Assembly: GCA_965224195.1 (NCBI GenBank)
Contig: OZ245040.1
Location: 896,001-960,000, forward strand
Length of the DNA: 64,000 nucleotides
DNA from: Nitrosopumilus sp.
GTDB taxonomy: Archaea; Thermoproteota; Nitrososphaeria; Nitrososphaerales; Nitrosopumilaceae
Direction: 5' to 3'
The stretch's first letter is position 1, and every line of letters begins with the position of its first letter. Below the pieces are notes generated by a model that was not told the origin of the DNA, made no database searches, and was given only the letters and a program-made list of their open reading frames with translations. The translations under genes were made by a program, and so were the position numbers. Shown piece after piece: positions 1,840 through 27,186 of this stretch.

Positions 1840-3020
1840 ATGAAATTACTAGTAATTCTTGGTTTAGTTTTGCTTAGTTTTGTTTTGATGAATTATTCTA
1901 ATGATTTGGTGTATGCTCAATTTTCAAATCAGAATACTCTCAATGTAATCTTTGAAAATAATGTTTCTCCTTCATATGAAATGCCTCTAGTTCCAGGACA
2001 AACATTCACTCTAACTCAAAATCACTCTTGGGTTAATGATGAAACAAGTAGGTATAATCTTGAATCATATACTCTTGATGGTGAGAAAGTAAAAATTTCT
2101 AGAACTGCATGAGGAGATTTCACATTGAATATCTCAACTGATTCATCTCATGAAGTAGTCCTTTCAGCTGTACAACAATATGCCCTAAGTGTAGAGGGAA
2201 CAAATGATTCCTCTTTTCTTCCATCTTCTCCAACTAATGATAACTGGTTTGATGCAGGCTCTGAAGTATCATCATGTAAGAATCGAATAACAATTTTTTT
2301 TGTTTTAAATGATAACTGGTTTGATGCAGGCTCTGAAGTATCAGTTAACGTGCAAAAAACAACAGAAATTGAACCAAACAAGGTAGGACAAGAGATAACT
2401 GGCTGGTCATTAGACAAGGCAGAGTTTTGGGAAATAGATGATAATGGAAATACATCATTTACCACTCCTCCTGTATCTCTAAATGAATATCATTAGGTGA
2501 TTTCTTTGTTGCATATCAATACAAACTCAATGTAATTTCTGAATCTGGTGAAACTACTGGAAGTGGTTGGTATGAGCAGGGAATTACTGTCCCAATTGGA
2601 ATTGATGCAGGTGGAGATGGATTGGTGTTAAATTCTGTATCTGGATGGGATGGTGCAGATGTGACATATGATGGAAATATTGTCCAAGTGTTCATTGATG
2701 GTTCCGTAACTGTTTCAGCTAAAGTTGAAAAAAATTATTCTCTAATAATTGGAATGATTGTTATTCCAATATTGGTTATTGGTGTTGTTGGGTATAGAAA
2801 ATTCAAGAATAGACCTCCTATAGTAATTGAGAAGCCTGTTGAGCGAATTGTAGAAAAAGTCATAGAAAGAGTAGAGGCTCCGGAGAAAAAATATGAAGAT
2901 GGGTATGATAACAAACTCTCAGAATATTTATCAGAACAAATTCAATCAAAACTAGATGAGATGCTTTCATCTAAAATTATCTCTGAAACAAAATATTCAA
3001 AGATTAAAGAAACTCTATGA
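1840..3020 (+). pseudogene. Fragmented secreted, membrane-anchored protein
   Basis: Three consecutive ORFs (signal peptide, beta-rich repeats, C-terminal TM) broken by a TGA at 2110 and a frameshift near 2496. Contains the duplication+insert scar at 2236-2343. Confidence 0.75.
2236..2343. repeat. 36-bp direct duplication flanking a 36-bp insert
   Basis: aatgataactggtttgatgcaggctctgaagtatca at 2236-2271 and 2308-2343. Confidence 0.95.
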
Positions 3021-3077
3021 TCTCTTAAAAAATATCTGCAAAAATTTAAAATAAATTTAAGTTGGTATTTTTTTCTA

Positions 3078-4216
3078 CTACCAACATGAGTTCTGAGTAC
3101 CAGTTACCAATCCAGATGTAATACTACATGTTCCTGTGTTGGTTCCTATGAGCAATAGATCTCCACTTATCGAATTTGCAAGACCATCTATCAAAACATT
3201 TTGAGAATCTGTAATCTTAACAGTACTGCCAAATGTGTTGCCCGTAATGGTTATGTTTTGAGAATCAAAAATTTCCATTCCACTATCAATATCACTATTG
3301 GTAATTATCACTGGGTTTGAACTTGTTTCATCATTAACCTTGACAGCTCCATCAATGTCTGCACCGTTGATAGTAATTGAATTACTTCCACTCTCTGTAA
3401 TAACGTCGGATGAAACTCGTGAACCACTTTCCATTACAAGAGTTCCGCCTTGCATTTTGACGCTGCCAGTAACTGTACCGGTTCCTGTAATTAACCATGA
3501 TTGACCACTTGGAATATTCAAATCGCCACTGTGGGTTCCTGAAACAGTACCATCATATGCAGAATTTGTCGTAATACTTACTTGATCAGTATTCTGCAAT
3601 CCAGGAGTGCCATCATCAGTAACCGTTAATTCAAATACGTATGTCTTTGTGCTACCTGGAGTTGGGGAATCAAATGATGAATTTACAGTATCGTCATTGT
3701 TTAGTGTAAGGGTTTCTCCGTCAGCATCAATTATAGCCCAAGAGTATGTTGCAATTGCACTATCATCAGATGAACCTGTACCATCAAGATTCACAGTTAC
3801 TCCTTCTGTAACTGATTGATCAGGACCTGCATCTGCAGTTGGTGCATTATTTACACCTACATCATTTACTGTAATATCTACTGTATCTGCAGTAGATGAA
3901 TCACCATCATCATCAGTAACTATTAGTGAGAATGTCAAGGTTTCAGCATCTGCACCATTAGCTGGTGCAGTAAAGCTTGGGTGTGATGCGGTATTATCAG
4001 GAGATAATGTTACTGTAGTTCCTGCAGTTTGACTCCATGCATATGTGTCAACTGTTCCATCTGAATCACTTGATCCTAAACCAGTAAGATTGACAGCATC
4101 TCCTTCTGTAACTGATTGATCAGGACCTGCGTTTGAAGTTGGTGCATTATTTGCAGGAGGTGCACAGCCTGATAATTCATTACTTCCACTAATTTGATTT
4201 CCAGATACACCAAAGT
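3078..4216 (-). pseudogene. 5'-truncated PKD-domain surface protein
   Basis: Two PKD repeats (NNAPT.AGPDQSVTEG). The frame is open from ~4216 but has no start codon or signal peptide and is cut at the 42-bp repeat. Confidence 0.8.
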
Positions 4217-4258
4217 TTGATATTTAGAATACTGCATGTTCATAACAGATGCAACAGC
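4217..4258. repeat. 42-bp exact repeat, second copy at 30104-30145
   Basis: ttgatatttagaatactgcatgttcataacagatgcaacagc at both sites. Confidence 0.9.
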
Positions 4259-4315
4259 GCATGAAAAGTCAAAGTCCCAGATTATGCTGAAAATCGTAGT
4301 TTTAAGATCGGTTAA

Positions 4316-4423
4316 TTATAAGCGATCTAATACAATAACAAAAAATACTCGCACTGTATCAATGTGGTATAATACTTGCGATTTAAGATCAGATATATCA
4401 AAGATATATCATACTATAATATT
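4316..4423 (+). promoter_or_regulatory. Conserved upstream element shared with ~23006-23114
   Basis: attataagcgatctaata...tataatacttgcgat...agatatatcaaag...atatcatactataatatt-ATG AAACCTCAT occurs at both loci. Confidence 0.65.
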
Positions 4424-6496
4424 ATGAAACCTCATCTCTTGGCAGCAGTAGTATTGTTTTCTGCTGTATTGCTATTCCCTGCCAATGCATTTGCAAATAA
4501 TTATCTGCCAGGAGATGATAATACTGATACGTTTACTGGAAACAACGAGTTTGCAGATGACCATCCAGATTATACAAAGGATGGCAACTGGGAGACAAAT
4601 GAGACCGCCCTCAAAGAAGCTCACTCTGAAATAACAAATCTAATGACAACCCAAAACGATACCCCACTAGAACAGTATACGGGGCCTGACATCCCACTTA
4701 CAATGGTGTACATCGACGATGATACGCTGGTTGTGGGTCTTGACACGATGGCTGCATACTTTGATGTTCCAATAGAGCCAGAATATCTGCAGTTCTTTTT
4801 GGGCATAGATGAGCCAGTTGAGATAAAATATGTAGAGTTTCAGCCAGAGTCACATTCATCCCAAGACAGGATAAAACAATGGCAGGACAGGTACAAAACC
4901 TCCTGTATGCCAGTAAAGGCTGGATACCAAAAGGTATGTGAGATATACAAAAGAACTATGATGCAACTTCATGTGCCAATACCTGCTACTACAACTACTA
5001 CACCTACCACACCTGTAGTTGCACCTCCTACACAAACCACAACACCTTGTGATGACAGCCCAAAAAGCAATACATGCTATTACTACAAGCTGTACCAGGA
5101 CAGATGTACTGAGGGCAAAACGTACAAGCGATGTGGCACGTATGCAACTATGATCAAAAACGCAGGATATGATCTGCCTACTAGTAGCGGAACTGTACCA
5201 ACACCAGTACCAACACCAGTACCAACATACGAACTACAAAATATTAAAACGATAAAGTCTGGTGATTCCATAAGGGTATCCTGGGATGCGCCATCTGACT
5301 TTACCGTAAAATACTACAAGATGTATGTATCTGAGAATGGTGGATATGCTGCATACAAGGGTAAGATAACAAACACTGCCACATCTTACACGCTATCTGG
5401 TGTGCAAGAAGGTAAAGAGTACAAGTTTAAGATAAAAATGTACTATACTAATCAGCAAGGCAGTACAAGCATCAAGTATTTCTACTCTGATGTTGTTAGT
5501 GTACCGGTAACCACACCAACATGTACTGGCTCGCAAATACTGCAAGGTAACGTATGTGTTGATAGATGTCCAGCTAGTAATGAGGAGTGGCGCAACGGCA
5601 TGTGTATTGTGGTGTCATGTCCTATAGGCCAAGTGATACAGAACAATGTTTGTATAACAGTACTAAAGCCAGTTGTGATTACACCACCTATACAACAATG
5701 TAATGTACCCTCTAATGGAACACAGACACAATCTGGTCTAAGCTGTTTATTGGGTATGAGTAGTGGTATATTACGTGGTGGAGAACCAATTCAAATAACA
5801 GGTAATGATGTCGGTTCACCTTCAATATTAAACTTACCTGCTGAAGGTACAGTTGGTATTGTTTTAGAACACAACAACACAAATGTAATGCTCACAAACT
5901 CACATGTAGTACATGCATTTAGAAACGTTGATAGTATATGGTTTTCTGCATTAGAGTTTCCATTTGGAAAAGAAATTGGTGATGTAATTGCAGATTCAAA
6001 TTACCATCTATTAAATACAATGTATACTGATGCAGCACTTGTATCCATTACTGATGATACCATAGTTGCACATGCTAACGAGATAAGATATAATGATGAT
6101 ATTCTCAATGTCACAGATTATGGCAATTACCATGATCTAGATATTGGTCATGAGTTATACATTGCTGGCAGACATAATGATGGTTTTGGTGGACTAGCAT
6201 ATTACAATGCGACTATTGTAATTGCTGTAGAGAATAAACCCAATACACATGTAACCCTTAAAAATATGGGTGTAGGTTCCTATCCTAGTCAAGGTGGAGA
6301 TAGTGGTGCACCTATATTCACTAATAATACTGATGGTACTGCTACCTTTATGGGCATGCATGTAGGACAAGGATGTGCAATAATGTTAGAAAAACAAAAT
6401 GATCGACTAATAGATTTTGGCAACTGTGCTGAACCACCGTTTAAGTTATTTACCCCTTGGGTGAATATTAAAGCAGAGTTTGGACTACAAAACTAA
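4424..6496 (+). CDS. Secreted multidomain protein: FN3, Cys-rich linker, C-terminal chymotrypsin-like (S1) serine protease
   Basis: Signal peptide MKPHLLAAVVLF..AFA, Thr/Pro linkers, FN3 (IRVSWDAPS..YTLSGVQEGKEYKFKI), and triad motifs TNSHV, TDAALV and GGDSGAP. Confidence 0.85.
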   Translation: MKPHLLAAVVLFSAVLLFPANAFANNYLPGDDNTDTFTGNNEFADDHPDYTKDGNWETNETALKEAHSEITNLMTTQNDTPLEQYTGPDIPLTMVYIDDDTLVVGLDTMAAYFDVPIEPEYLQFFLGIDEPVEIKYVEFQPESHSSQDRIKQWQDRYKTSCMPVKAGYQKVCEIYKRTMMQLHVPIPATTTTTPTTPVVAPPTQTTTPCDDSPKSNTCYYYKLYQDRCTEGKTYKRCGTYATMIKNAGYDLPTSSGTVPTPVPTPVPTYELQNIKTIKSGDSIRVSWDAPSDFTVKYYKMYVSENGGYAAYKGKITNTATSYTLSGVQEGKEYKFKIKMYYTNQQGSTSIKYFYSDVVSVPVTTPTCTGSQILQGNVCVDRCPASNEEWRNGMCIVVSCPIGQVIQNNVCITVLKPVVITPPIQQCNVPSNGTQTQSGLSCLLGMSSGILRGGEPIQITGNDVGSPSILNLPAEGTVGIVLEHNNTNVMLTNSHVVHAFRNVDSIWFSALEFPFGKEIGDVIADSNYHLLNTMYTDAALVSITDDTIVAHANEIRYNDDILNVTDYGNYHDLDIGHELYIAGRHNDGFGGLAYYNATIVIAVENKPNTHVTLKNMGVGSYPSQGGDSGAPIFTNNTDGTATFMGMHVGQGCAIMLEKQNDRLIDFGNCAEPPFKLFTPWVNIKAEFGLQN

Positions 6497-6776
6497 AAAG
6501 ATCATTATTCCTCTTTTTTCTTTGTATGTAGTTTTGTCATTATTAATTATAATATGGTTTTACGATGATAAAGACTTGTCTAAATGGTTGCCTGAACTAC
6601 AGAATTTTTACACTGCAATAAACAAGGATGAACAATTTATGTCGCATTGTTGTGAAGATGATAACCTATGTATAATACATCCACCTCCACATTATAATTC
6701 TATAACTGTGGATGCTGAAATTTGTGAGTTTATTGAAAAAAAACGATATGAAATGACACCTACAAAGTTACAGTGA
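6480..6776 (+). CDS. Small N-terminally anchored Cys-containing protein
   Basis: Hydrophobic N-terminus; overlaps the protease stop codon. Confidence 0.5.
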   Translation: MDYKTKKIIIPLFSLYVVLSLLIIIWFYDDKDLSKWLPELQNFYTAINKDEQFMSHCCEDDNLCIIHPPPHYNSITVDAEICEFIEKKRYEMTPTKLQ

Positions 6777-6800
6777 TCATACTATACCGTACACCTTGGC

Positions 6801-7424: not shown

Positions 7425-7430
7425 TATAAT

Positions 7431-8003: not shown

Positions 8004-8299
8004 TATACAGTGAAAAATTAAAAAATCCTATTTAATTAGTTTGGTGATTATTATCCTCTCCCAGCCCAATTAATATTGATAGTTATTTCTATATTTTTTC
8101 TATCCATATCAGTACTGATGTCTTTTGCAATTAAAAAAAGTTGTAGGTTCTATCCTTGGAAAAACATTATATCAGAGTTGGATCTTGAGCCTTAGTACAC
8201 TACAAGCTTCATTAATCGTTGGTCTTTCTGTTTATTTTGGATCTATAACAATAACTGTTTTTATTGCATATCTATACATACATCTACAACTGATTGCAT

Positions 8300-8416: not shown

Positions 8417-8458
8417 CAATACCTAAGAATATTATAATCTCGATAAAGGAGTTAAGTA

Positions 8459-8554: not shown

Positions 8555-8998
8555 ATCATGAATAAGAAAATTGTAATTATTGTAGGTGTTGTGTTTTTAT
8601 TGCATTTTGGTTAATCGTTATTGGCCTGTTAACAGCTGCAATGTATAACTCTATGCCCACATTTGACATACCGTAACAGCTACAACTGCAACACCAATCA
8701 AAGTCAAAATTTTTGAAGACATAAGCTTCATACAGAAATTATAATGTCTAAGTTATTTAAAATATTATAATTAGAAAACTGAAATAAATCAACGAGGCAT
8801 GAAAATCAAACAATCTTCTTATATGTAATCAAGTGCAAGTATGGATTCACGGGATAGAGACAACTTTTATCAGCTGTTTTCCCACATTAGCACATTCTCA
8901 TGAATCTACTCTTGTCAAGGTGTTGCAAATATATTTTGATATTATAAACCATTAATCTGAAAATACGTTATTATCCAAGATGTAAAACTTGGCATATA

Positions 8999-9277
8999 TT
9001 GCCAAACTTTTATTTTGACATTGAGATTACTGGGCTTGACCCATCAGAACACGAAATCATAACCATACAGTATGTAGAACTAAATGATCAGACAGGCAAG
9101 CGTGAAGGTGACTTGAAGATACTAAAGTCATGGGAGCTTGGCGGTGAGAAAAACCTCCTACAAAAATTCACAGATGACACAGAGATATCCTCAGGAATTA
9201 AAACAATACAAAGAATCTTCATTTACAAATCATGGACCGTATCTTATGGTTTATTCAAACGGTACTGCAATGATTGA
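8999..9277 (+). pseudogene. Truncated RNase H-like / DEDD 3'-5' exonuclease
   Basis: N-terminal FYFDIEITGLDP..EIITIQY motif; only ~65 aa are recognisable. Confidence 0.6.
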
Positions 9278-9442
9278 TGAAAATGGATGTGCACTTTACA
9301 TAGACACTGACCAAGTTTGTCGTCATACAAATTACATGACACAGCTCAGATCTAGCTATCATTTTAATTGGCCTTAAAATTGAATAAAAAAATTGTAATT
9401 ATTATATTAGTAATTTTTCTTACATTTTGGATAGGCAATGTC

Positions 9443-9575
9443 TTAAGATCTTTGCCTTTTAAGAAACCTTGCAGCAATATCCTCAATTTCTGACATGTCT
9501 ATTCTTTCAGACTTTGGGTGATTCACTGCAATGTACTCATCAACTACAGCCCTGCCATTCTCTGGGAAATAATGA
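9443..9575 (-). pseudogene. C-terminal fragment paralogous to 29924..30247
   Basis: VDEYIAVNHPKSERIDMSEIEDIAARFLKRQRS* versus LDKYIAENHPDSERIEISEIKNISARFLKRCQS*. Confidence 0.7.
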
Positions 9576-9589
9576 GATGTCAAGTCTTT

Positions 9590-10481
9590 TGCTCCTGCAA
9601 AGTTATCCAGAATAGACCTCTAGTTATCCATGTAATTGCAGTTGCTGCAAATATTATTAGAACAATTTTTTCATTTCTATTCCAATTTCCAAGATTTTTT
9701 AATTCTTCAGTGATTATGTTTTTGTCTTGGAGTATTGGTTTTTTGTTATCCAATCTTGCAGAAGTTGTCATGTATATCCATAATGCTAAAAGAGAAACAA
9801 CACTAACTGGAACTCCTACTAACATCCAATCAAAGAAAATTATCTCTACTCCTGCAAGCGAATCACCTAGAGAAGCAAAAGTGCATTAGGTGCAGTGCCA
9901 ATCATAGTTGACAACCCTCCCAGACTAGCAGCATATGCAACACTGAGTATCAAACATGTTGCAAATCTTTTTTTCTGTGCAACATCTGTTTGTGATATTA
10001 CTGCAACTGCAATTGGAAGAATTAACAGAGTAGTTGCAGTATTTGTAATCCAGGTACTCATGTATCCTGTAACAATTATGAATCCCAAAATGATATTTTT
10101 TGGTTTTGTTCCAACAATTTTCAGAGTGTTAAATGCAAATCGCTTGTGAAGATTCACTTTTTCTATTGTCTTTGCAAGTAGAAATCCACCCATTAGCAAA
10201 AATACCAACTTGTCACCATATGCAGAAATTACTTTGTCAATATCTGCCACATTAAACAGTGGAAATACAAACAATGGAATTGATGCAGTAACATAAAATG
10301 GAATTGCCTCAGTGGCCCACCAAATTGCCATCCATACAGATAATCCTAAAACAAGCTTTGCCTCAAAGGCTAATCCATCAATAGGGTATGAGATGATAAT
10401 AGAAAATAGAATTGGAGATAGTACAAACCCTATAATTCGTAGTTTACTGTGTAATGGACTCCAATTATTAAAATTAATCAT
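9590..10481 (-). pseudogene. SLC13/DASS Na+/dicarboxylate-sulfate symporter, N-terminal part
   Basis: WWATEAIP, LHKRFA, TNTATT and TMIGTAPNA motifs; frameshift near 9870 and truncation near 9600. Confidence 0.85.
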
Positions 10482-11221: not shown

Positions 11222-11601
11222 TTGGATAAGAAGAATGAATTTCAGACAGATTTGAGGGTAGAAATGTCCAAGATGAATAGACCCAAATCCAGAAATCTTT
11301 TAGTTTATGGAAAACCTGGAACAGGCAAGTAGAAATGTCCAAGATGAATAGACCCAAATCCAGTGTAAAACAATAGTAATTATTAAAATCTAGAAAACAA
11401 ACAAAGCATGTGAACGTTTTCCAGATAAAATTAGAAGTTGAAACATCAAAAGAAATTCTATTACAGACAATTTTAGAAAACAAGGAGAATTTGGATACAA
11501 ATATGATTGCAATTGCGATTAAAGATTATGTTAAAAACCATGAAAAATATGATATTGAGAAAAAAAGACTCTTAGATTTTATTTCAGATGTAAAAAAATA
11601 A
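11222..11601 (+). pseudogene. Degraded hypothetical gene
   Basis: Frame MDKKNEFQTDLRVEMSKMNRPKS is broken by the 71-bp scar and by in-frame stops, then continues as 11410..11601. Confidence 0.5.
11258..11363. repeat. 35-bp direct duplication flanking a 36-bp insert
   Basis: gtagaaatgtccaagatgaatagacccaaatccag at 11258-11292 and 11329-11363. Confidence 0.95.
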
Positions 11602-13635: not shown

Positions 13636-15484
13636 GATTTATTTTGTATTTGTAAACTCCTATTTGTGGGTTTCACTAAACAATTCTCACAAGGGGAATT
13701 GTTTGATTGGTTCAAATTTTTACATATTCAACACTGAGATGGATTAATTATTTCAAAAATAAAACTAAAGATCCCATTACAATCAATATGCTTATGAAAA
13801 TTAACAAATTTCTAATGGGATTCCTAACAACATATCTTTCATCATGTTTTCTTAGGTGAAATCAAAGACTTCGCCCCTTTCAATTCTTTCCTTGAACTTC
13901 TCTTTGGATTTTTCATGGGCTATGTCATTTTCACTTTGTAGGGTTTTTTTTGACATGGATAATAATGACAGTTATTGAATTTATTGTAGCTAGTTGGAAT
14001 TCCTAAAACTTGTAAAGAAATTAACAAAAAAATTGAATACGTGTTCAATATGCTTTCCAATTACTTTTTGTTTTATGTTTGGTAATAGTAGTTATGACTA
14101 GAACAGAAAGAAGACGAAATACTGCCCATCCTACACGGGATGGGAAACACAATCCAGTATGTGTTGATCCTAACTGTGAGGATTGTTAATTTGTAGGTGG
14201 TGGACCAAATGGGATTGAAGCCCTGGCAGTCGTGGGTTTATGATACATTCATCAGACGACTTAATGGTTGTTATAAAGGATGTCCTGTAGTGGTATAAGT
14301 AATAATACCATATGACAAGAATATCACTAAAGCGATGCAAACTTTTTGAGAACCTCAACACTAAGGGACTCCTCATGGTATTTTACCCCGTCTTTGTTTT
14401 CACTCTTTGTAATTATTACCCTGGGGCCGAGATCTTCTATCATCCTAACTATCTTCTTTTGTAGGACCATTACCAGGGAGAGTAGGGTATAATATTGTCA
14501 GTTATGATGTACTGGTGTCTTTACTGTTGCCAGTATGAGTATGGGAGAGGATATTTACAATGAGTGTTGAGGGTTTGTCAAAAAAACATCTTATGCAACT
14601 ACGAGAAGCTGGGACCAACTTTTATCCAACAAATAAGGATGGGAGAAAAGAGGGGATTTACAAAGATAAAGTGGTTGCCATAAAAAGAGAGGAGCAAATA
14701 TTTAGGACACTACAATCAACTGAGGAATTTGAGCATGCAATATCACAGCCGAATTTTTGTGCAGTGTTTACTACTAACTCTCTTGCATTTGTAATTGATG
14801 ATGATACTGAAGAAAATATCAAGGTGGCCAGAGACCACACCATATGCACGTACAGAAAAAAGATTGATCGCACAAGCTTCCACTATTTTGTAATTGCAAA
14901 AACCACGAGGATTTTGAAAAGCTTGCAGTAAAAGACGAGTATATCGAGCACCTTGAGGTGTTTACATATCATAAAATGCGCGTACTTGACGTCCAAGGCC
15001 ATTTTAGGCTTGACAACAACAAATCAGATCCCAAAGCATCATGGTTCCTAAAGGGTGGAGACTACCAAAGACTGCGGATATCCCCTCATTACATATGATA
15101 TGGCAAAGAACATACCAGAGTGGGGGTAAGCCTGATTCGTCTGGGGATGGCAAAAGCGTATCCCTGAAAAAATTTCAAGGAGTAGATATTAACAAGCCAC
15201 CAACACCACACATGACAAATACCAGATTTAACAGCATTGCAATAAAGTGTCTAAGTTATGAAGGCTGGAGTGATGAGAAGACATTAAAACACCTAGAGAT
15301 GCTAAATACAAAAAGAGCATATCCTCATACCAACGATCTAAAACAATATATCACCAATGCAAAAAAATACCTGGAGGATTTTAAAGATGATTTTAAGGAT
15401 GGCATCTACCCCATAACACTTGATAACCTAAATGATATAACAAACCCAAAATACGCAGACAAGCTTGTAACTGTTAGGGGAGTA

Positions 15485-15590
15485 GTATCAAGTAATATGA
15501 TATCATACAGCGTTCCATTTGTAAACAAAGCTGAGCTATTGAAGAAAGGTCTAATGGTATCAAGTAATATGATACCATACAGCGTTCCAT
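15485..15590. repeat. 34-bp duplication (1 mismatch) flanking a 38-bp insert
   Basis: gtatcaagtaatatgata[t/c]catacagcgttccat at 15485-15518 and 15557-15590; period 72. Confidence 0.9.
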
Positions 15591-16526
15591 ACAAACTAAA
15601 AGTCAAATGCATCAATGAAGATGAGGGTCACATAACACATGACAATGAAGAAGACAGAACAAAGATTGTGACAATCAGAAAAAAAAACAATGCCTTTATT
15701 TGTTGATGCCAGTTATAGTGGAAAAAATAAAATATTAGGTCCAATATCGAAGATACCTTTTGATTCTAAATGTACCACTTTCTATAAGGAAAAAGAGCAT
15801 CTAACAATAAACAGGATGAAGATAAGGTCCATAATGCACTCACTAATCATTGATGGTAAAGAATTCCTAGATGATGATGAAAACAAATACTCCTCATATG
15901 ACATTTATGTACTGCAAAAGGATGCTGGCAACAATCTCACTGCTGGAAAAGAGATGGAGGTGAATGGATATGTTATTGCAGATCCCAAAAACGCCAAAAT
16001 CACAATCATGGCAGTACACGTAAGGGAACTAAATGAGAATAACTATAACATAGAAAAGATAAAGGAATTGCAGGTGCTTCACGCAGGCAAGTCACTACAA
16101 GAGATAGTGGACTGGTTTGCATCAGAGTTCACAAAATACACAAAGATAGTGAAACGCAAAGATCTCATATTAGGTGTCATCCTCAACATGTTTAGCTCAC
16201 TAGGTTTTGAGTTTGAGTATAAGATTGTACGTGGCTGGGTAAATATAATAGTAATTGGCGACTCTACTACGGGAAAATCTGAGATAGTGCGACTTGTGAT
16301 AAAACTGGCTAAGTCTGGGCAGATAGTAAGTGGTGAGATGGCAACTATCGCAGGAATTGCGGGTGCATCAATTCAGGCAACTGGTGGTCAATGGTTTACT
16401 GATTATGGACTATTACCATTACAGGACCGCAAGGCCTTATGGATAGATGGTGCACACAAGATACCAAAACATGAGATGGACAAGCTAGCAGAAGCTGAGA
16501 GGAGTGGAAAAATAGAGATAAACAAG

Positions 16527-16638
16527 GCATCAAAGGGCTCTGCATGGGCAAGAACCAGACAGCTGAGAGAGAAAGAATTGCAGCTGCCATTGCAGCTAAC
16601 TAGCATCAAAGGGCTCTGCATGGGCAAGAACCAGACAG
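16527..16638. repeat. 36-bp direct duplication flanking a 40-bp insert
   Basis: gcatcaaagggctctgcatgggcaagaaccagacag at 16527-16562 and 16603-16638. Confidence 0.95.
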
Positions 16639-16672
16639 GGTAAAATTATGAACCCCCTTAATGATGAGGGGC

Positions 16673-16768
16673 GTGACACTACCACCATGAACAACTTTAT
16701 TTGAAATGGTGGGACACAACAACCAACGCTGCGATAGTGTGACACTACCACCATGAACAACTTTATTT
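16673..16768. repeat. 30-bp direct duplication flanking a 36-bp insert
   Basis: gtgacactaccaccatgaacaactttattt at 16673-16702 and 16739-16768; period 66. Confidence 0.95.
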
Positions 16769-20967: not shown

Positions 20968-22242
20968 TTGCGATTTAAAAACACTAAAACTGGGATTTTA
21001 TTTGGTTTAATTATTGCTGCAGTAATAATTGTTGCATTTGCCATATCAAACACATTACAAACCACAACTGATAGTACAGATAATACCACAACTGATACTA
21101 TAACTGGTTTATCAGGTGAGGTAAAAATTGGACTAATTACCCCGCTAACAGGGGATTTATCCACACATGGCAATGAAAACTATGAGGCATCAAAGCTTGC
21201 AGTATCTGATTTTAATGAACATCTAAAGGAGATAGGGGAGCCTTGGCATATTACCATGATATCTGAAGACTCTGCAACAAACCCTGTACTTGCCCTAGAA
21301 AAACTAGCATCCCTTAACGCAAAGGGAATAAAAGCAGTACTAGGACCTGAAACCAGCTCCAATGTGCGCAATATTATAGGATATGCAGATTATAATAATA
21401 TGCTACTGGTAAGCTGTTGCTCTACTGCTCCTGCACTTGCCATACCAAATGACAGTGTATACAGACTGGTACCAGATGACACAAACCAAGGAGCAGCACT
21501 TGCAAAACTCTTAGATAGTCAGGGTATAGATGTGGTAATACCTGTGTATAGGGGAGATACTTGGGGTGATGGCCTAAAGGATGCGACAGCACAATCTTTC
21601 TTATCTGGGGATAAAATAGTAGATGATGGTATTAGGTATAATCCAGAGTCCCCTGAATTTTCAGCCTCTACTTCCTTACTATCTAAAAAGGTACAAGAGT
21701 ACGTTGATAAATATGGTACAGACAAAGTTGCAGTTTTATATTTGGGCTTTGCTGAAGTGTTACAGTTTATGCAGTCATCATCACAGCATGATATATTAGA
21801 TGATGTGAGATGGTTTGGTCCTGGTGCTACTACAAAAGAGTACAGTTTGATAAATGATCCAATTGGTTTAGAGTTTTCAAATACAATAAAGTTTACCACA
21901 GTCCAGATGGCAGTATCTGCAAACCCAACTTACCAGCACGTGCAGGACTATCTGGTGGATTCTTTTGGCAGGGCACCTAGTACATTTGCACACTCGTCTT
22001 ATGATGCAGTGTGGGTTGTAGGGCTATCAATTTTGGAATCCCAGAGTTCTGATATATCTGATATTAAAAATATACTCCCCTCTGTTGCAGATAATTATAG
22101 TGGTGCAATAGGAAATACAAAGCTAAATGACGCAGGAGACTTGGCAAATGCCGACTATGAGGTGTGGGGCATTAGAGATGGGGCTTGGGTGTTGTTAGGT
22201 CAGTATGATTATGCTGATGGTACTATAACTTTAATAAAATAA
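20968..22242 (+). CDS. livK: Branched-chain amino acid ABC substrate-binding protein
   Basis: N-terminal anchor, KIGLITPLTGDLS and YDAVW motifs. Confidence 0.85.
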   Translation: MRFKNTKTGILFGLIIAAVIIVAFAISNTLQTTTDSTDNTTTDTITGLSGEVKIGLITPLTGDLSTHGNENYEASKLAVSDFNEHLKEIGEPWHITMISEDSATNPVLALEKLASLNAKGIKAVLGPETSSNVRNIIGYADYNNMLLVSCCSTAPALAIPNDSVYRLVPDDTNQGAALAKLLDSQGIDVVIPVYRGDTWGDGLKDATAQSFLSGDKIVDDGIRYNPESPEFSASTSLLSKKVQEYVDKYGTDKVAVLYLGFAEVLQFMQSSSQHDILDDVRWFGPGATTKEYSLINDPIGLEFSNTIKFTTVQMAVSANPTYQHVQDYLVDSFGRAPSTFAHSSYDAVWVVGLSILESQSSDISDIKNILPSVADNYSGAIGNTKLNDAGDLANADYEVWGIRDGAWVLLGQYDYADGTITLIK

Positions 22243-22294
22243 TATCATACTGTTTTATTAAAAGTATTTATTTGTAATAATTACCGATCATACT

Positions 22295-22495
22295 ATGCGG
22301 CTGCCTAGTATGATGACAATGTTTTTGGTATTGTTTTTTGGTCCAATTGCAGGTATTGTTTTTAGATATAAATACAATAAAACCAATGACAGACAGATGG
22401 CCACATTTTTGTGGTATGTATCTTGGTTGTCTTTATTGGTTGGTGTAATATGTGCGGGATTTTATTATCCAGAATATTTTGATATGCCGTATTAG
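22295..22495 (+). CDS. Small two-TM protein
   Basis: Two hydrophobic segments. Confidence 0.45.
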   Translation: MRLPSMMTMFLVLFFGPIAGIVFRYKYNKTNDRQMATFLWYVSWLSLLVGVICAGFYYPEYFDMPY

Positions 22496-22682
22496 ATGGT
22501 AATGGTTATTTTACAATGCTAGTCCAACATATGACCAGCTAGCATCCCCACAATTATCACACATTAAACTATCCAAACACTTTATGTTACATTGCTCCTC
22601 TGTAATTGTAATCTTTTTGCCACAACTGCCGCACTTAATTTTCCACATAATAGATAATAGGATCACTATAGTATTATATCAT

Positions 22683-22943
22683 ATGGTATCCCCTACAACA
22701 CTCCAGGACAAATACATATACTTTGAGATTTCCCTAAATGAAAGCTGGAAAGAGATTAAAAATGATGATACAAAGTACAAGGCCTATCATGTTATAATTA
22801 CTGCAAGCAAGACTCCAACTATAACCCTCATGGATAAAAAAGGAAAAACAGCAAAACTGTGTTTTGATATGGGTGCAACTATCCTGTTAGAGGGTCCAGA
22901 TACCATATGGTATGATATAGATAATTTGATAGAGTGCTCCTAA
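22683..22943 (+). CDS. Hypothetical protein
   Basis: ORF track 22584..22943; ATG at 22683 is the more plausible start. Confidence 0.4.
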   Translation: MVSPTTLQDKYIYFEISLNESWKEIKNDDTKYKAYHVIITASKTPTITLMDKKGKTAKLCFDMGATILLEGPDTIWYDIDNLIECS

Positions 22944-23114
22944 CTATACCCATAACTGATGAAGGCTTGTACAAAAAAATAAGCAATTCAATTTAGTATT
23001 GTACATTATAAGCGATCTAATATTATTATAATAAAATACTCATATTATATTAATGTTATATAATACTTGCGATCTGAAGATTAGATATATCAAAGTATAT
23101 CATACTATAATATT

Positions 23115-24172
23115 ATGAAACCTCATCTTTTGGCAGCAACAGTAGTCTTTTCATAATACTGCTTGTACCTGGCGGAGCATTTGCAAACCAGCTGCCAGGA
23201 GATGGCATTTTATCAATACTAAAACAATATGCAAGTGGTGTTCCACTAGATAACATACAGTGCAAAAACCCAGAACATTTTGTAGCGTTGCGTGATAATG
23301 GCAAGCCAATATGCGCCACAGAAAGAACACTTGAGCATCTGGGGCTGGACATGACCTATTACAATCCCAAACCAATTTTAAAAAATACTAAACTAATCAT
23401 TAATCCTACCAACCTTACAGGTATAATCCCACAAGACATTACTTTTGATTATGTTTTAAAAATGCCTCCTGATGATCCTGATGCATTTGCCCAAAGAATG
23501 GCTGAATTTTTTGACGATGAAATTATATCTTCAAGTCATGAAAGAAAAGAGCCAAGCCATCATGGACTGGATAAATACACTACAAAAAGAGGTTGGATTA
23601 AGATTGATAAGGAGTCTCTTTATGGTTTTCCTTTCACATATACTTTCTTTGGACCAGGCAGAATTCCACCTGCACAAGCAGAATCTGTTACAACGTCATT
23701 ACTAGATGAATTGGGAATAAAATTAGATGGAACAGAATATTTTGATAAAGGGGGCATGGCTTCAAATTATGATTATAAATATATGCAAACAATTGGAGAT
23801 TTTATAATCCCAACCAACGTGATAATTACTGATTTTGATCCAGGTTACACTTTTATCCATATTGGAAGTTGGAACTATAATTTATCAGAGATGGATTTTT
23901 TTGACATAAAACAAGCAAAACAAAACGGCAGAGAACATATTCTCAAATATCCAGAACTAACTGGACCTAACTGTGATGTTTTTTTTAGCACTATACCTAC
24001 CGGTATTGAAGATGAAAAGGTTTTGTACATTCTACATGAAAGACCCGTCTATAAGGTGTTTAGTGGCGCATGCAGTATACCATATATGACGGGACATTCT
24101 CAGATGTTTGACACGTTTGTTGATGCAATAACTGGTGAGCCTTTATACGTGCTAAGTAAGTGGATGTTCTAA
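23115..24172 (+). pseudogene. Secreted protein with a 1-nt frameshift in the signal peptide
   Basis: ATG at 23115 (MKPHLLAATVVF). Adding one T in the T-run near 23148 gives IILLVPGGAFANQLPGDG..LKQYASGVPLDNIQC, in frame with 23288..24172. Confidence 0.75.
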
Positions 24173-24183
24173 TGTCTGTTGTT

Positions 24184-25177
24184 ACTCTGTCAAACAAATC
24201 ATTTCTAACTAATGATTAATTTCATTTCCCTCAAACACTTGCAAATAAATTATACAGCTCGACTTTTAATTCCAATTCCTTTATCATGTATTTTCTTTTG
24301 TGAGCCATGACATACTCACCAAACATCCTTTTGAATGTAGAAAAGACACACTCTACAATCCATCTATTCCCATAGCTAACGCTGCGCTTCCACAAATCCA
24401 AATTATACATTTGAGCCAAAACTGATTTCTTTCGGGGATAACATTTTGTTTTGATAGATGATGTTTTTCTAACTTTAACTGCAGGCAGTGCATTTGTGTT
24501 GTGGTACAGATATGAAAAGTTGTTTTCTGAATCATATGCGCCATCAGCTAGAGCCTTGATTACATTTCCTTTGTACAATGCTTGTTGTACTAGTTCTGGC
24601 AGATGTGCAGGCATCATGGGATGAATCATCAATTATTTTCAGTGAAACTATTTTCTTTGATTTCACATCTGCACCAACATGGATTTTCAAGAATCCTTTT
24701 CTCATGTGCCATTTCTGTCGCATCCATTCACCTCTGTTTGCAACCTTGATTCCTGTACTGTCAATTGCTAAAATGATTTCATTGTTATCTCCAAGGAATT
24801 ATCAATTTTGATGTCAAGCTTGTTTATTCTCTTGTGGACTGGTGTAAAATCAGGAACTGATGGAATTCTATTACAATATGCACGAATCATTCCTTTCTGT
24901 TTGTCTGAATGGTAATCCAAAATAGATTCTGGCATAACCTGGCAATTTCATAAACGAGTCAGGATAGCCTGGACTTTCTACCTCTTTTGTTGTGATTCAT
25001 GACCTCTAGTTCTTTATGCCAGTTCTCAATAACATCAAATGACATGATGATCTTCACCTCTTCGGACTAGTTTTTCATTGTATTGACTCCAGTTAACCAT
25101 GAAAATAATCAGAATGTGAGATCCAAAGCTATTGTGGTGTAATGATATTGATCAGATTGTTATTTGTTCGACAAAGT
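24184..25177 (-). mobile_element. Degraded IS5-family element
   Basis: Inverted ends actctgtcaaacaaat / atttgttcgacaaagt; frameshifted transposase with AIDSTGIKV, LADGAYDS and YGNRWIVECVFSTFKRMFGE. Confidence 0.85.
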
Positions 25178-25420
25178 AAATCTAAATCCTTCACTATTCA
25201 TATTTTTTTCCTAAACCGTTCTGTTTGGGTTTTTTGCACTTACAAGATGCAGTCTATCTTGTTCCATCTTCTCCTCGAATTGGTTTTTAATTTTTTCATC
25301 TGCTTCTCCCCATTCAGGAAGTTCTGATTTTGAAATCAACTCTAAAGACATATGCGATGGATATGTTTTTGCCTTTAATTTATTTTTCTATTACAAGGTT
25401 TTGTTAAATTGCGTAACATA

Positions 25421-25684
25421 TCAACAGATGCATCCCGTGCTATGATCAACTCGTCTCAAAACCATACAATACATCAAAAGTGATGCAATATTAACAAATG
25501 CCAGATAATTTTCTGCTACTCTTTCATATCTGATTGTTGTTCTTTTGAATCCATTTTTGAGCCAAGCAAAGAATCTCTCCACAACATGACGAATTTTATT
25601 GTATTTTTTGTATGATTTATTTTTTGTTGCTTTATTGTTATTTTTTCTAAATGGAATGCATGGATTGATATTTCTATTTTTCAA
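25421..25684 (-). pseudogene. IS5-family transposase C-terminal fragment
   Basis: RHVVERFFAWLKN..RTTIRYER motif. Confidence 0.85.
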
Positions 25685-25689
25685 AATTC

Positions 25690-26154
25690 AAACATAATGC
25701 ACAAAGCCTTCTAAAGATGGGAAAAGATGTAGCAAAGAAGGTTCCCCGTGTCTTTGTAACAGATGGCTTATCAGTTTACAATGATGCCTTCAAAAAGGAA
25801 TATGCACCAAAAAATTTCTTACACAAGCCATCAAAACACGTTAGTGACATACATTTTAAGAACCAGCTAGCAAACAACAACATACAGGAAAGACTAAACG
25901 GTGAGTTTCGTGACCGTGAAAAGGTCTTTAGATGTCTTAAGAAAGTTGACAGTCCAGCAATTACAGGAATCAAATTACATCACAATTACATAAAACCACA
26001 CATGAGTTTAGATGAGCATACACCAGCTTTTAGAGCTGAAATTGAGATTAAGGGTGATAACAAGTGGTTGACAATCATTCAAAATGCCTCAAAAACTCCC
26101 GACACTTGACACGAAGAAAATTTTGATCTCATCTCCAGATTACTTGACAGAACC
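25690..26154 (+). mobile_element. IS6-family transposase 3' fragment with right end
   Basis: FVTDGL, NNIQERLNGEFRDR and HNYIKPH motifs; terminal gacagaacc (reverse complement GGTTCTGTC). Confidence 0.8.
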
Positions 26155-26188
26155 TAGATAAGTAAGGCATACCAGTGTTATTCAATAT

Positions 26189-27013
26189 ATGAAAAAGACA
26201 ATAATATTTGCAATAATATTTACAATAATATTTACAATAATAGCTGGGATCTCAGTTTTGGTATTGGGACCTTTTGGAACATCTCATGTAGATACCATAG
26301 AGATGACAGATGCAGAAAAGACATGGCTTGGGACAAGACAAACTATAAGGGTGGCATATGACCCTGCTTGGTATCCATTTGAGTACATGGACAAAGAGTC
26401 CGGCAAGACAGGGGGACTTTCAGGCAAGTACTTTGCAGAGATAGAGTCATCTACAGGAGCAGACCTTGTTGCAATAGAGATATCTGACTGGGCAGATGCA
26501 TTAGAGTCAGTTAAAGACGGCAGGGCAGACATATTGCTCATGGTAGCTGACACTGAGCAGAGAAGAGAGTTTTTGGGATTTACAGAACCACACAGCAGAA
26601 TATCAGTGGACATGATCACAGTTGGAACGCAGACACTTGATGTAAAAGAGCTAGCAGAGCTCAGAGTTGCCACCGTAAAGGATTATGCAGTAGAGTCATG
26701 GCTTGATCAGAACAAGCCAGAGGTAAGGTATACATCATTTGAAAATGCCGCTGCTGCACTTGAGGCCCTGGAGGCAAAGAGCATGGATGTCTTTCTTGAA
26801 AATGAGCATGTGGCATCAATTACAGCTGCAAAGGCAGGCATAAGTGGAGTGTTTAATGCAGGCCCATCAGGATACGAGTATGTTCTGTCCATAGGCTTTG
26901 CAAAAGAGTCCGGTGAGCTTGGCACCATACTGCAAAAGGCCATTGATGCAATTCCGCAAGACCAAAAAGCACAGATGCTCAAAGACGTACTGGCAGAGAA
27001 CGACGGCATCTGA
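26189..27013 (+). CDS. Family 3 extracellular solute-binding protein
   Basis: N-terminal anchor, IRVAYDPAWYPFEY and QRREFLGFTEP; resembles the periplasmic domains of BvgS-type sensors. Confidence 0.8.
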   Translation: MKKTIIFAIIFTIIFTIIAGISVLVLGPFGTSHVDTIEMTDAEKTWLGTRQTIRVAYDPAWYPFEYMDKESGKTGGLSGKYFAEIESSTGADLVAIEISDWADALESVKDGRADILLMVADTEQRREFLGFTEPHSRISVDMITVGTQTLDVKELAELRVATVKDYAVESWLDQNKPEVRYTSFENAAAALEALEAKSMDVFLENEHVASITAAKAGISGVFNAGPSGYEYVLSIGFAKESGELGTILQKAIDAIPQDQKAQMLKDVLAENDGI

Positions 27014-27060
27014 GCGCAGAGACAACTACTGCAGAGATTTGTATGAAAGGCAACTTGTTG

Positions 27061-27186
27061 CAGGTTTGATGCCACACATACAACTGATAAACTATCCATT
27101 TTCAATTTAACACCGTATCGCACAATAACTGACAAGGCAACAGGTTTGATGCCACACATACAACTGATAAACTATCCATTTTCAAT
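27061..27186. repeat. 46-bp direct duplication flanking a 34-bp insert
   Basis: caggtttgatgccacacatacaactgataaactatccattttcaat at 27061-27106 and 27141-27186. Confidence 0.95.

What the first reader, a model, noticed from the sequence alone, without database searches (positions are those of the whole stretch)
2236..27186. Six repeat-spacer-repeat scars outside the CRISPR array: candidate natural off-target Cas1-Cas2 integrations acting as a genome mutagen
Seen: six unrelated loci where local sequence is directly duplicated around a foreign insert. Duplication/insert lengths are 2236 (36/36), 11258 (35/36), 15485 (34/38), 16527 (36/40), 16673 (30/36) and 27061 (46/34). Insert sizes closely match this array's spacer range (~32-39 nt). 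Five scars lie inside pseudogenes, and I saw none in the core genes from 30.6 to 64 kb. Established: Cas1-Cas2 integrates a spacer by staggered attack and duplicates a repeat-length target, and off-target integration has been shown experimentally in E. coli type I-E. Inference: the adaptation machinery here has repeatedly written spacer-sized DNA into ordinary genes, and these events became fixed where selection was relaxed (about one per 5 kb). That would make it an insertional mutagen, a route to new arrays, and a dispersed record of captured DNA.
Basis: partly seen in the sequence, partly recalled or inferred. Interest (0 to 1): 0.92.

Follow-up and report, generated by a model that had tools for sequence, protein, structure and literature searches.

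The report
Stray CRISPR spacer insertions across genome
An ammonia-oxidising archaeon (Nitrosopumilus) carries about 38 small insertions that look like CRISPR spacers written into ordinary DNA instead of the CRISPR array, which shows that this immune machinery misfires in nature and breaks genes.

Summary
All six structures are real. They belong to a genome-wide set of 38 repeat-insert-repeat scars (duplication mode 36-37 nt, insert mode 34-37 nt, sum mode 73). These lengths fit the 36/37-nt repeats of two other CRISPR loci in this 2.06-Mb Nitrosopumilus genome, above all a type I-G locus with a Cas4/Cas1 fusion. They do not fit the window's own 30-nt type I-B array; only scar 16673 does. A motif found de novo at one edge of the duplications (G-T-T-R-C-A-A-T-G-G) resembles the spacer-side end of the I-G repeat. 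Inserts are unrelated to each other and to nearby DNA and have the GC content of array spacers (41% against 34% for the genome). Seven were copied, with sharp ends, from distant chromosomal genes. Relatives or paralogues hold the empty site for 12 scars. Another study's reads carry one scar and also an empty allele of another. Scars are enriched in repeated DNA and short open frames. Against this reading: the donors share no PAM, a few duplications have odd lengths, one or two look-alikes occur in Cas1-less relatives, and no scar has grown into an array. Verdict: natural off-target Cas1-Cas2 integration, a known mechanism seen here at unusual scale.

The parts
2236..2343 (.). Scar 1: 36-nt duplication (2236-2271, 2308-2343) around a 36-nt insert (2272-2307).
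   Evidence: The insert matches C1:207965-207998, 35 of 36. The site is empty in G012, G003 and G007. An empty allele, a contig joining 2235 to 2308, is present in run X4.
11258..11363 (.). Scar 2: 35-nt duplication around a 36-nt insert (11293-11328).
   Evidence: The insert matches the orc1/cdc6-like gene at C1:195937-195966, 34 of 36 over the full length. The relatives G012, G015 and G003 lack about 71-75 nt here. The duplication edge reads GTAGAAATGT, motif score 7.3 bits.
15485..15590 (.). Scar 3: 34-nt duplication (one mismatch) around a 38-nt insert (15519-15556), in a degraded MCM-like gene region.
   Evidence: The insert is identical (38 of 38) to the shared segment of two hsdS-like genes at C1:1093513-1093550 and C1:1101298-1101335. 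No orthologous site was found in 150 other genomes of the genus.
16527..16638 (.). Scar 4: 36-nt duplication around a 40-nt insert (16563-16602), at the end of the frame with an MCM P-loop domain.
   Evidence: Unitigs of runs X1 and X4 both end at 16556, as expected if the 36-nt repeat is duplicated in both. After excision the region is colinear with the G062 homologue.
16673..16768 (.). Scar 5: 30-nt duplication around a 36-nt insert (16703-16738). Its sum of 66 nt is the period of the window's own type I-B array.
   Evidence: It lies whole inside a 6278-nt contig of run X2. Excising scars 4 and 5 together lengthens the frame from 323 to 372 aa and gives one 213-aa match to G062 instead of three pieces.
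27061..27186 (.). Scar 6, atypical: 46-nt duplication around a 34-nt insert (27107-27140), sum 80 nt.
   Evidence: Homology to the paralogue C1:795429-796479 stops at the end of the first repeat copy. It may therefore have a different history, and its membership in the set is uncertain.
45990..50529 (+). CRISPR array of the window: 30-nt repeat, 68 exact copies plus one degenerate copy, spacers mostly 36-37 nt.
38608..45743 (-). Type I-B effector genes: cas3 (38608-41232), cas5b (41240-42244), cas7 (42256-43293), an unassigned 563-aa frame (43262-44953; cas8b by position, inferred) and cas6 (44994-45743).
   Evidence: NCBIfam matches; frames.
50680..52417 (+). Adaptation genes of the window's type I-B locus: cas4 (50680-51171), cas1b (51141-52154) and cas2 (52091-52417).
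28226..28263 (.). Single-copy (empty) paralogous site of the scar at C1:1363425.
   Evidence: window 27187+ aligns to C1:1362546-1363462 and C1:1363498-1363664, with a 38-nt overlap in the query; a spanning paralogue at 95.6% identity.
24458..24994 (.). Paralogue that spans, uninterrupted, the site of the scar at C1:1692970.
   Evidence: C1:920458-920994, 94.8% identity.

Best explanation
The scars are full-site, off-target integrations of prespacers by the genome's own CRISPR adaptation complexes. Most are probably the work of the type I-G Cas4/Cas1-Cas2 module (36-nt repeat, C1:707-715 kb), and a minority of the type I-B module in the window (30-nt repeat). Cas1-Cas2 loaded with a DNA fragment of about 36 nt attacks the two strands of a chromosomal site about 36 bp apart. 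Gap filling then duplicates those 36 bp on both sides of the fragment. Sites are chosen because one end mimics the spacer-side end of the CRISPR repeat (5'-G-Y-T-N-C-A-A-T-G-G on the attacked strand; the repeat reads GCTTCAATGG). Events persist mainly in repeated, mobile or already decaying DNA, where an insertion of about 73 nt costs little.

Shown here: the anatomy, the length match, the edge motif, the foreign or distant origin of the inserts, their derived state (empty sites exist), and their bias towards dispensable DNA. Inferred: that Cas1-Cas2 is the enzyme, which of the three modules acted, and the order of the two strand attacks.
For: 1. Lengths. Among 38 scars the duplication mode is 36-37 nt (19 of 38), the insert mode 34-37 nt (29 of 38) and the sum mode 73 nt, with 31 of 38 sums at 70-76. 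The genome's arrays have a 36-nt repeat with 36-37-nt spacers, a 37-nt repeat with 35-36-nt spacers, and a 30-nt repeat with 36-37-nt spacers.
2. Motif. An expectation-maximisation search with no prior motif finds G-T-T-G/A-C-A-A-T-G-G at one duplication edge. Its log-likelihood is 71.3, against 27.1 +/- 3.9 (maximum 36.2) in 30 sets of random sites. Fourteen held-out scars from relatives score 2.93 bits against 1.06 for random sites, p = 0.004. Measured from the motif start, the duplication mode is 36 nt, in 8 of 22.
3. Inserts. Their GC is 41.1% against 33.6% for the genome (p = 1.5e-6), and array spacers have 42.3, 42.1 and 40.4%. They share no word longer than 11 nt with each other. Local matches are no longer than for random 36-mers, 8.4 against 8.3 nt. 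The bias in terminal bases resembles that of array spacers: last base A in 0.53 of inserts against 0.40-0.45, first base G in 0.13 against 0.02-0.22.
4. Donors. Seven inserts match distant chromosomal loci over their full length (34-38 nt, 0-2 mismatches), and the homology stops at the insert ends.
5. Empty sites. They are seen for scar 2236, scar 11258, scars 16527 and 16673 and 8 further scars through paralogues. An empty allele of scar 2236 is present in run X4.
6. Not an assembly error. Runs X1 and X2 hold 0.99 and 0.96 of the sampled words. A unitig of X4, from another study, ends at 16556 like that of X1.
7. Three Cas1 genes each lie beside an array, and no casposase is present in this genome.
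8. Relatives. There are 3 scars within 21-kb loci around I-G cas genes of other Nitrosopumilus records. Samples of 400 kb each give 8 scars in three Cas1-bearing relatives against 1-3 in four Cas1-less ones.
9. Selection. 19 of 38 scars lie in multi-copy DNA against 95 of 400 random sites (p = 4e-4), and the median open frame is 150 aa against 316 aa (p = 7e-6).
10. Literature. Off-target sites that resemble repeats, with repeat-length spacing and a G at the attacked base, are described for P. furiosus Cas1-Cas2 in vitro (PMC6698737, passages). A Cas4/1 fusion of this system type (there called I-U) inserts mostly 36-bp spacers (PMC6547450, passages).
Against: 1. The seven donors share no PAM. 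TTN, the PAM of the G. sulfurreducens Cas4/1 system, stands at 0 of 7 in either orientation by my reading of the flanks (PAM). The PAM of this organism's arrays is unknown, because no array spacer found a target.
2. The motif is not the repeat. Position 4 is a purine where all three repeats have T. The other duplication end prefers a purine (16 of 18), where the I-G repeat has T. Similarity to the whole repeat is weak, p = 0.02.
3. Eight of 38 duplications lie outside 34-39 nt (25, 30, 30, 42, 43, 46, 49, 54 nt).
4. Cas1-less relatives are not clean. G002 has one good look-alike (35/38) and G018 has 1-2 doubtful ones in 400 kb each, both with low motif scores.
5. None of the tried foreign inserts was found in virus or metagenome collections, and no insert equals an array spacer.
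6. Scar 27061 coincides with a paralogy breakpoint.
7. Everything here is comparative and in silico; no enzyme was tested.
Confidence: 0.85

Rival explanations
1. An unknown integrase or mobile system other than CRISPR Cas1-Cas2 (for example a casposase-like enzyme supplied by a mobile element) inserts short DNA with a target duplication of about 36 bp.
For: Casposase-like Cas1 frames of 400-440 aa occur in other genomes of the genus. One or two look-alike scars occur in relatives with no Cas1 match at all. No PAM is seen at the donors.
Against: This genome has only three Cas1 genes and all are CRISPR-linked. The inserts share no sequence and no terminal inverted repeats, with a longest shared word of 11 nt and 2.4 of 8 terminal matches against 1.9 for random 36-mers. 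Insert length and GC equal those of array spacers. The edge motif matches the CRISPR repeat end. From recall, known casposon duplications are about 14-15 bp.
Confidence: 0.05
2. The scars are by-products of replication or repair: a tandem duplication of about 73 nt whose middle part was replaced, or a templated insertion during break repair.
For: Some duplications are long or irregular (42-54 nt). Scar 27061 sits at a recombination boundary. One candidate in G018 (L094:6709) looks like a diverged tandem duplication.
Against: Inserts show no local template, 8.4 against 8.3 nt. Donors lie hundreds of kilobases away and show no microhomology at the junctions. Such processes predict neither the sharp length peaks nor the specific edge motif.
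Confidence: 0.04
3. The scars are assembly or sequencing artefacts of this metagenome-assembled genome.
For: The best holders X1 and X2 may be the samples the genome was assembled from, so they are not independent support.
Against: Contigs built from reads hold 0.99 and 0.96 of the sampled words. An X2 contig contains scar 16673 whole. Run X4, from another study, breaks at the same repeat-defined position as X1 and also carries an empty allele of scar 2236. Similar scars occur in other assemblies. Artefacts would not carry a repeat-like motif.
Confidence: 0.01

Closest known systems
Non-canonical (off-target) spacer integration and 'neo-CRISPR' loci in E. coli type I-E (Nivala, Shipman and Church 2018, Nat Microbiol)
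   Same: A spacer-sized insert is flanked by a duplication of repeat length at non-CRISPR sites in the chromosome. Citing papers describe the events as rare genome-wide integrations when Cas1-Cas2 is overproduced (PMC7054753, PMC11788318, passages). One adds 'circumstantial evidence' for two other species (bioRxiv 10.1101/148544, passages).
   Different: Here the events are natural and are present in the assembled genome, with 38 in one genome and more in relatives. The system is archaeal type I-G or I-B, with a 36-nt ruler. None of the 38 has become a multi-spacer array. The paper itself is not held; I know its content only from citing papers and from recall.
Non-CRISPR integration sites of Pyrococcus furiosus Cas1-Cas2 in vitro (Grainy et al. 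2019, PMC6698737)
   Same: Off-target sites resemble the repeat in size and in a few conserved positions. The paired attacks are one repeat length apart, with G preferred at the attacked base (passages). Here 23 of 38 scars have G at a duplication edge against 31% expected.
   Different: [quoted passage not shown] Here the conserved edge corresponds to the spacer-side end of the repeat, and the events are heritable chromosomal insertions.
Type I-U (now I-G) Cas4/Cas1 fusion of Geobacter sulfurreducens (Almendros et al. 2019, PMC6547450)
   Same: The adaptation module is of the same kind: a 556-aa frame with Cas4 and Cas1 parts, Cas2, and a neighbouring Csb2. Spacers are predominantly 36 bp, and the repeat ends in ...AGC (passages).
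   Different: That system selects a TTN PAM in 50-80% of spacers. None of the 7 donors here has TTN. The word 'off-target' does not occur in that paper's main text.
Casposon integration (family 1 casposase of Nitrosopumilus koreensis, PMC8464041)
   Same: It involves a Cas1-family integrase in the same genus that makes a target-site duplication. I saw only the search listing and the start of the abstract.
   Different: Casposons are kilobase-sized elements with terminal inverted repeats. The inserts here are unrelated pieces of 34-38 nt, and no casposase is present in this genome.

Membership tests
Off-target full-site Cas1-Cas2 spacer integration | The target duplication has the length of the CRISPR repeat. 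| tested here: met
   The duplication mode is 36-37 nt (19 of 38), with 30 of 38 at 34-39 nt. Repeats of 36 and 37 nt are present in the genome. Scar 16673 (30 nt) fits the 30-nt repeat. Eight of 38 lie outside 34-39 nt.
Off-target full-site Cas1-Cas2 spacer integration | The insert has the length of a spacer. | tested here: met
   37 of 38 inserts are 32-41 nt with a mode of 35-36. Array spacers have modes of 35-37 nt.
Off-target full-site Cas1-Cas2 spacer integration | The insert is captured DNA from elsewhere, unrelated to the flanks and to other inserts. | tested here: met
   Seven distant donors have sharp ends. There is no local templating. Inserts are mutually unrelated. Their GC is like that of spacers. 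The source of the other 31 inserts is unknown.
Off-target full-site Cas1-Cas2 spacer integration | The target site resembles the repeat or its junction. | tested here: met
   The de novo motif GTT(G/A)CAATGG at one edge compares with the repeat end GCTTCAATGG. Only one end resembles the repeat; the other end does not.
Off-target full-site Cas1-Cas2 spacer integration | Donors carry the system's PAM. | tested here: not met
   No common flank is seen among the 7 donors, and TTN stands at 0 of 7. The PAM of this organism is unknown, so the test is weak.
Off-target full-site Cas1-Cas2 spacer integration | The insertion is derived: an empty site exists. | tested here: met
   12 of 38 scars have an empty orthologue or paralogue. 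There is also one empty allele in reads. The other 26 were not tested or had no homologue.
Off-target full-site Cas1-Cas2 spacer integration | The events depend on Cas1-Cas2. | tested here: inconclusive
   Samples of 400 kb each give 8 scars in 3 Cas1-bearing relatives and 1-3 in 4 Cas1-less relatives. This genome has 38 in 2.06 Mb. No genetic or biochemical test is possible with these tools.
Bona fide CRISPR array or neo-CRISPR array | Three or more copies of one repeat with spacers between them. | tested here: not met
   None of the 38 scars chains to a third copy, and every scar has its own repeat sequence.
Transposon, MITE or casposon with target-site duplication | The inserts share a sequence with terminal inverted repeats. 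| tested here: not met
   The longest shared word among inserts is 11 nt (random 36-mers: 26). Terminal inverted matches are 2.4 of 8 against 1.9 for random 36-mers.
Tandem duplication or slippage | The intervening DNA is homologous to the flanks. | tested here: not met
   The longest local match is 8.4 nt against 8.3 nt for random 36-mers.

The most novel reading that the evidence does not exclude
Off-target integration may be more than rare noise. It could be a standing mutational force in wild Nitrosopumilus populations that preferentially disables integrated mobile elements and duplicated genes. Three hits lie within 1.3 kb of one MCM-like helicase gene, and half of all scars are in multi-copy DNA. 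Cas4/Cas1-Cas2 would then act as a second, crRNA-independent layer of defence, or of genome decay, through insertional inactivation. It would also leave a dispersed archive of captured DNA that is free of the autoimmunity filter acting on true arrays: 7 of 38 inserts are self-derived, against 0 of 287 array spacers.
Probability: 0.12. Interest if true: 0.9.

Novelty: new member of a known kind. Interest (0 to 1): 0.8.

Why it matters
Off-target spacer integration has been shown with overproduced Cas1-Cas2 in E. coli and in vitro. For natural genomes, a citing preprint describes only circumstantial evidence. Here one wild archaeal genome holds dozens of such events, with empty sites, donors and a target motif. 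That gives a natural measure of the fidelity and cost of CRISPR adaptation. It shows a concrete route of gene inactivation by an immune system, and it gives a free read-out of the intrinsic target preference and 36-bp ruler of a type I-G Cas4/Cas1-Cas2 integrase. It also suggests a simple genome-wide signature (duplication = repeat length, insert = spacer length) that could be scanned across all prokaryotes. Because scars are not filtered by autoimmunity, they also record what the adaptation machinery samples, including self DNA near orc1/cdc6 and at recombining hsdS genes.

Tried and rejected
Similarity of the duplications to the whole repeats is weak: I-G p = 0.02, the other two not significant. 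Only the repeat end carries signal. A first Gibbs sampler without positional restraint did not settle on a positioned motif. I replaced it with an expectation-maximisation search anchored at the duplication edges, with a random-site null.

PAM: no shared flank appears among the 7 donors.

Source of the foreign inserts: there was no match for the array or for window 2200-27190 in phage records. There was no exact match for two whole inserts in viral contigs, nor for two 25-nt insert cores in metagenome contigs. Exact-match scans miss diverged donors, so these blanks show little. A genus-wide DNA search gave only weak hits to the inserts (best 32 nt at 88%, E = 0.0015).

Array spacers have no targets in the own genome, so the arrays' PAM could not be derived.

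No RNA holder was listed for the stretch, so expression and processing of the scars could not be examined.

Scar 15485 has no orthologous or paralogous site. Scar 27061 has no empty site, and its paralogue ends at the repeat.

Neo-arrays: none was found.

From the candidate list (43 rows) I dropped six coding tandem repeats or low-complexity pairs (2505, 2506, 963056, 1073464, 1612384, 1612444). I added three that the filter had missed (911485, 778956, 712241). I then dropped 712241 (inside the I-G array) and 1716536 (inside a repeat-protein gene), which leaves 38.

In the relatives' samples I did not count pairs inside repeat-protein genes (five in G002 L066; G018 L102 x2 and L094:15626), tandem duplications (G018 L111 x2, G045 L132), or off-size pairs (G009 L039:2262 and L045:6852). 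G018 L094:6709 and L095:19676 are doubtful.

The paper by Nivala et al. 2018 is not held.

I found no report of natural, genome-wide off-target integration in Nitrosopumilus or elsewhere in searches of the held library. That library lacks most subscription journals.

Full report
OBSERVATION.
- 2236: 36-nt direct repeat around a 36-nt insert
- 11258: 35/36
- 15485: 34/38, one mismatch between the copies
- 16527: 36/40
- 16673: 30/36
- 27061: 46/34

No further structure of this kind lies between 27.2 and 64 kb. That stretch holds only a CRISPR array (45990-50529; 30-nt repeat, 69 copies) and one coding tandem repeat.

THE WHOLE GENOME. The window is C1:896001-960000 of a 2.07-Mb genome in two contigs, 33.6% GC. 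The closest Cas4/Cas1 relatives sit in records titled Nitrosopumilus or Nitrosopumilaceae.

An exact scan and a mismatch-tolerant scan for direct repeats up to 140 nt apart show a very sharp peak. Of 79 two-copy pairs, 25 fall in the single cell 'repeat 36-39 nt, gap 32-39 nt'. After curation, with the dropped rows named under Tried and rejected, 38 scars remain, spread over the chromosome:
- duplication lengths: 36 nt (9), 37 nt (10), 38 nt (5)
- insert lengths: 34 nt (6), 35 nt (9), 36 nt (8), 37 nt (6)
- sum of the two: 73 nt (10), 72 nt (7), 74 nt (5)
- 30 of 38 duplications are perfect

THE CRISPR LOCI. The genome has three arrays, each beside a Cas1 gene:
- A1 at C1:707205-713740: 36-nt repeat, 90 copies, spacers mostly 36-37 nt
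- A2 in the window: 30-nt repeat, spacers 36-37 nt
- A3 at C1:1457181-1466783: 37-nt repeat, 132 copies, spacers 35-36 nt

NCBIfam types the window's locus as I-B, with cas6, cas7, cas5b and cas3 on one side and cas4, cas1b and cas2 on the other. A1 is typed as I-G from Csb2, and a 556-aa frame with Cas4 and Cas1 parts lies next to it, followed by Cas2. A3 has cas1, cas2 and cas4 and was not typed further.

The scars therefore fit the 36/37-nt repeats, not the window's own 30-nt repeat. The sum of duplication and insert does not depend on where the boundary is drawn. It peaks at 72-74 nt, the period of A1 and A3. Scar 16673 (30+36 = 66) has the period of A2.

TARGET MOTIF. By eye, one edge of nearly every duplication reads G-Y-T-N-C-A-A-Y. 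I tested this in three ways.
- An a-priori test used the 8-mer shared by the A1 repeat start and the reverse complement of the A3 repeat end. It gave 13 of 38 scars with at least 6 of 8 matches, against 11% of random sites (p = 1.4e-4). G was the first base of a duplication edge in 23 of 38, against 31% expected.
- A search without any prior motif (expectation-maximisation, both orientations, offsets 0-3) returned G-T-T-G/A-C-A-A-T-G-G. Its log-likelihood was 71.3, against 27.1 +/- 3.9 (maximum 36.2) for 30 sets of 38 random sites.
- The matrix also scores 14 held-out scars from relatives above random sites: 2.93 against 1.06 bits, p = 0.004.

The A1 repeat on that strand begins GCTTCAATGG. 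In relatives' loci, and in this genome, the array follows cas4/1-cas2, and in the direction of those genes the repeat ends in ...ATTGAAGC. The conserved edge is therefore the spacer-side end of the repeat. This rests on the usual cas-leader-array order, which is inferred. Measured from the motif start, the duplication mode is 36 nt, in 8 of 22 well-oriented scars.

The resemblance is one-sided and partial. Motif position 4 is a purine where the repeats have T. The other end prefers a purine, where A1 has T.

THE INSERTS. They are unrelated to each other (longest shared word 11 nt) and have no terminal inverted repeats. They are not templated from DNA within 500 nt (8.4 against 8.3 nt for random 36-mers). 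Their GC content is 41.1%, against 33.6% for the genome (p = 1.5e-6). That is the value of array spacers, which have 42.3, 42.1 and 40.4%. Their first and last bases show the same mild biases as array spacers.

Seven inserts have full-length matches elsewhere in the chromosome, with homology ending exactly at the insert ends: 35/35, 38/38, 35/36, 34/36, 36/37, 36/37, and a more diverged seventh matching 27 of 28 nt. The donors are:
- an orc1/cdc6-like gene, named from its Walker motif by my reading
- two genes 12 and 39 kb from it
- the identical segment shared by two hsdS-like genes
- a gene present in two copies
- two others

None of the 287 array spacers has a self match. That is expected if self-targeting spacers are purged from real arrays but tolerated in inert scars (inference).

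DERIVED STATE.
- Scar 2236: G012, G003 and G007 have the duplicated segment once. The insert's donor gene is conserved elsewhere in those genomes.
- Scar 11258: G012, G015 and G003 lack 71-75 nt at the site.
- Scars 16527 and 16673: excising both lengthens the MCM-like frame from 323 to 372 aa. It also turns three overlapping translated matches to G062 into one of 213 aa.
- Eight further scars have a paralogue in the same genome that runs through the site uninterrupted. Two of those paralogues lie in the window (24458-24994 and about 28226-28263).

READS. Logan contigs of X1 and X2 (one study) hold 0.99 and 0.96 of the sampled words. An X2 contig contains scar 16673 whole. A unitig of X4, from another study, ends at 16556 exactly like that of X1. 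That is the position where 31-mers enter a duplicated 36-nt repeat. X4 also has a contig that joins 2235 to 2308, which is an empty allele of scar 2236. The scars are thus real and at least one is polymorphic in nature.

WHERE THE SCARS SURVIVE. Nineteen of 38 lie in multi-copy DNA, against 95 of 400 random sites (p = 4e-4). The longest open frame across the excised site has a median of 150 aa, against 316 aa at random sites (p = 7e-6). Scars lie somewhat nearer the arrays, at a median of 131 kb against 209 kb (p = 0.01). In seven cases excision restores a clearly longer frame, for example 327+120 to 414 aa at C1:739057. Fourteen of 38 are in-frame. Three scars lie within 1.3 kb of a degraded MCM-like gene.

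RELATIVES. Three scars lie within the 21-kb loci around type I-G cas genes of other Nitrosopumilus records (L013 x2, L018). Evenly spaced 400-kb samples gave these counts:
- with Cas1: G009 3, G045 2, G072 3
- without Cas1: G002 1, G063 0, G051 0, G018 1-2 doubtful

This is a trend in the expected direction (about 6.7 against about 1.5 per Mb; this genome has 18 per Mb). It is not a clean contrast. Past loss of CRISPR loci could explain the residue (inference).

WHAT SPEAKS AGAINST.
- The 7 donors share no PAM, and TTN, the PAM of the studied Cas4/1 fusion, stands at 0 of 7.
- Eight duplications have odd lengths.
- No foreign donor was found.
- Scar 27061 sits on a paralogy breakpoint beside which the paralogue carries a solitary I-B-like repeat.
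- No scar has become an array.

COMPARISON WITH WHAT IS KNOWN. Off-target integration by overproduced Cas1-Cas2 in E. coli is known (Nivala et al. 2018). That paper is not held; I know it through citing papers. One of them says the natural evidence was circumstantial, in two species. My recollection that these were Yersinia pestis and Sulfolobus islandicus comes from memory only.

P. furiosus Cas1-Cas2 integrates in vitro at non-CRISPR sites that resemble the repeat, with repeat-length spacing and a G at the attacked base (PMC6698737, passages). The G. sulfurreducens Cas4/1 fusion inserts mostly 36-bp spacers (PMC6547450, passages).

Five searches of the held library found no report of a natural genome with many such events.

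VERDICT. It is a new natural instance of a known mechanism, at a scale and level of detail that make it useful.

Noticed in passing
G000 C1:1626150-1626320 (outside the window): A degenerate orphan mini-array with three decayed copies of the type I-G repeat and spacer-sized gaps, far from any cas gene.
   Followed up: partly
G000 C1:795268-795435 and C1:796480-796650 (outside the window): Two 92%-identical units of about 170 nt each end in a solitary degenerate copy of the window's type I-B repeat. They flank a 1-kb paralogue of window 26080-27105. This may be a leader-repeat remnant carried by a repeated element.
   Followed up: partly
G000 C1:1092856-1094184 and C1:1100748-1102010 (outside the window): Two hsdS-like frames on opposite strands share an identical central segment, which was the donor of the insert in scar 15485. 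The arrangement looks like an invertible, phase-variable type I restriction specificity system.
   Followed up: no
window 3800-4130: A 31-nt direct repeat pair lies 300 nt apart. A contig of run X4 joins 3799 to 4100, which is a 300-nt presence/absence polymorphism between data sets.
   Followed up: no
window 47386-47950: Inside the type I-B array, two spacers recur 267 nt apart (47519/47786 and 47585/47852). This is an internal duplication of four repeat-spacer units.
   Followed up: no
window 15041-16643: Fragments of an MCM-type helicase gene (P-loop domain only) have no orthologue in most of the genus. This is probably the remains of an integrated mobile element, and it was hit by three scars.
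   Followed up: partly
other genomes of the genus: Cas1 matches in open frames of about 400-440 aa with lower scores occur in several relatives (for example G040 x3, G058 and G014). They look like casposases rather than CRISPR Cas1. This genome has none.
   Followed up: no
window 4376-6496 and 8670-10000: Summed contig depth is several times higher than in neighbouring bins in runs X1, X2 and X4, and many variant contigs map here. The region (an fn3 plus trypsin-like frame) is multi-copy or shared with other organisms in those samples.
   Followed up: no
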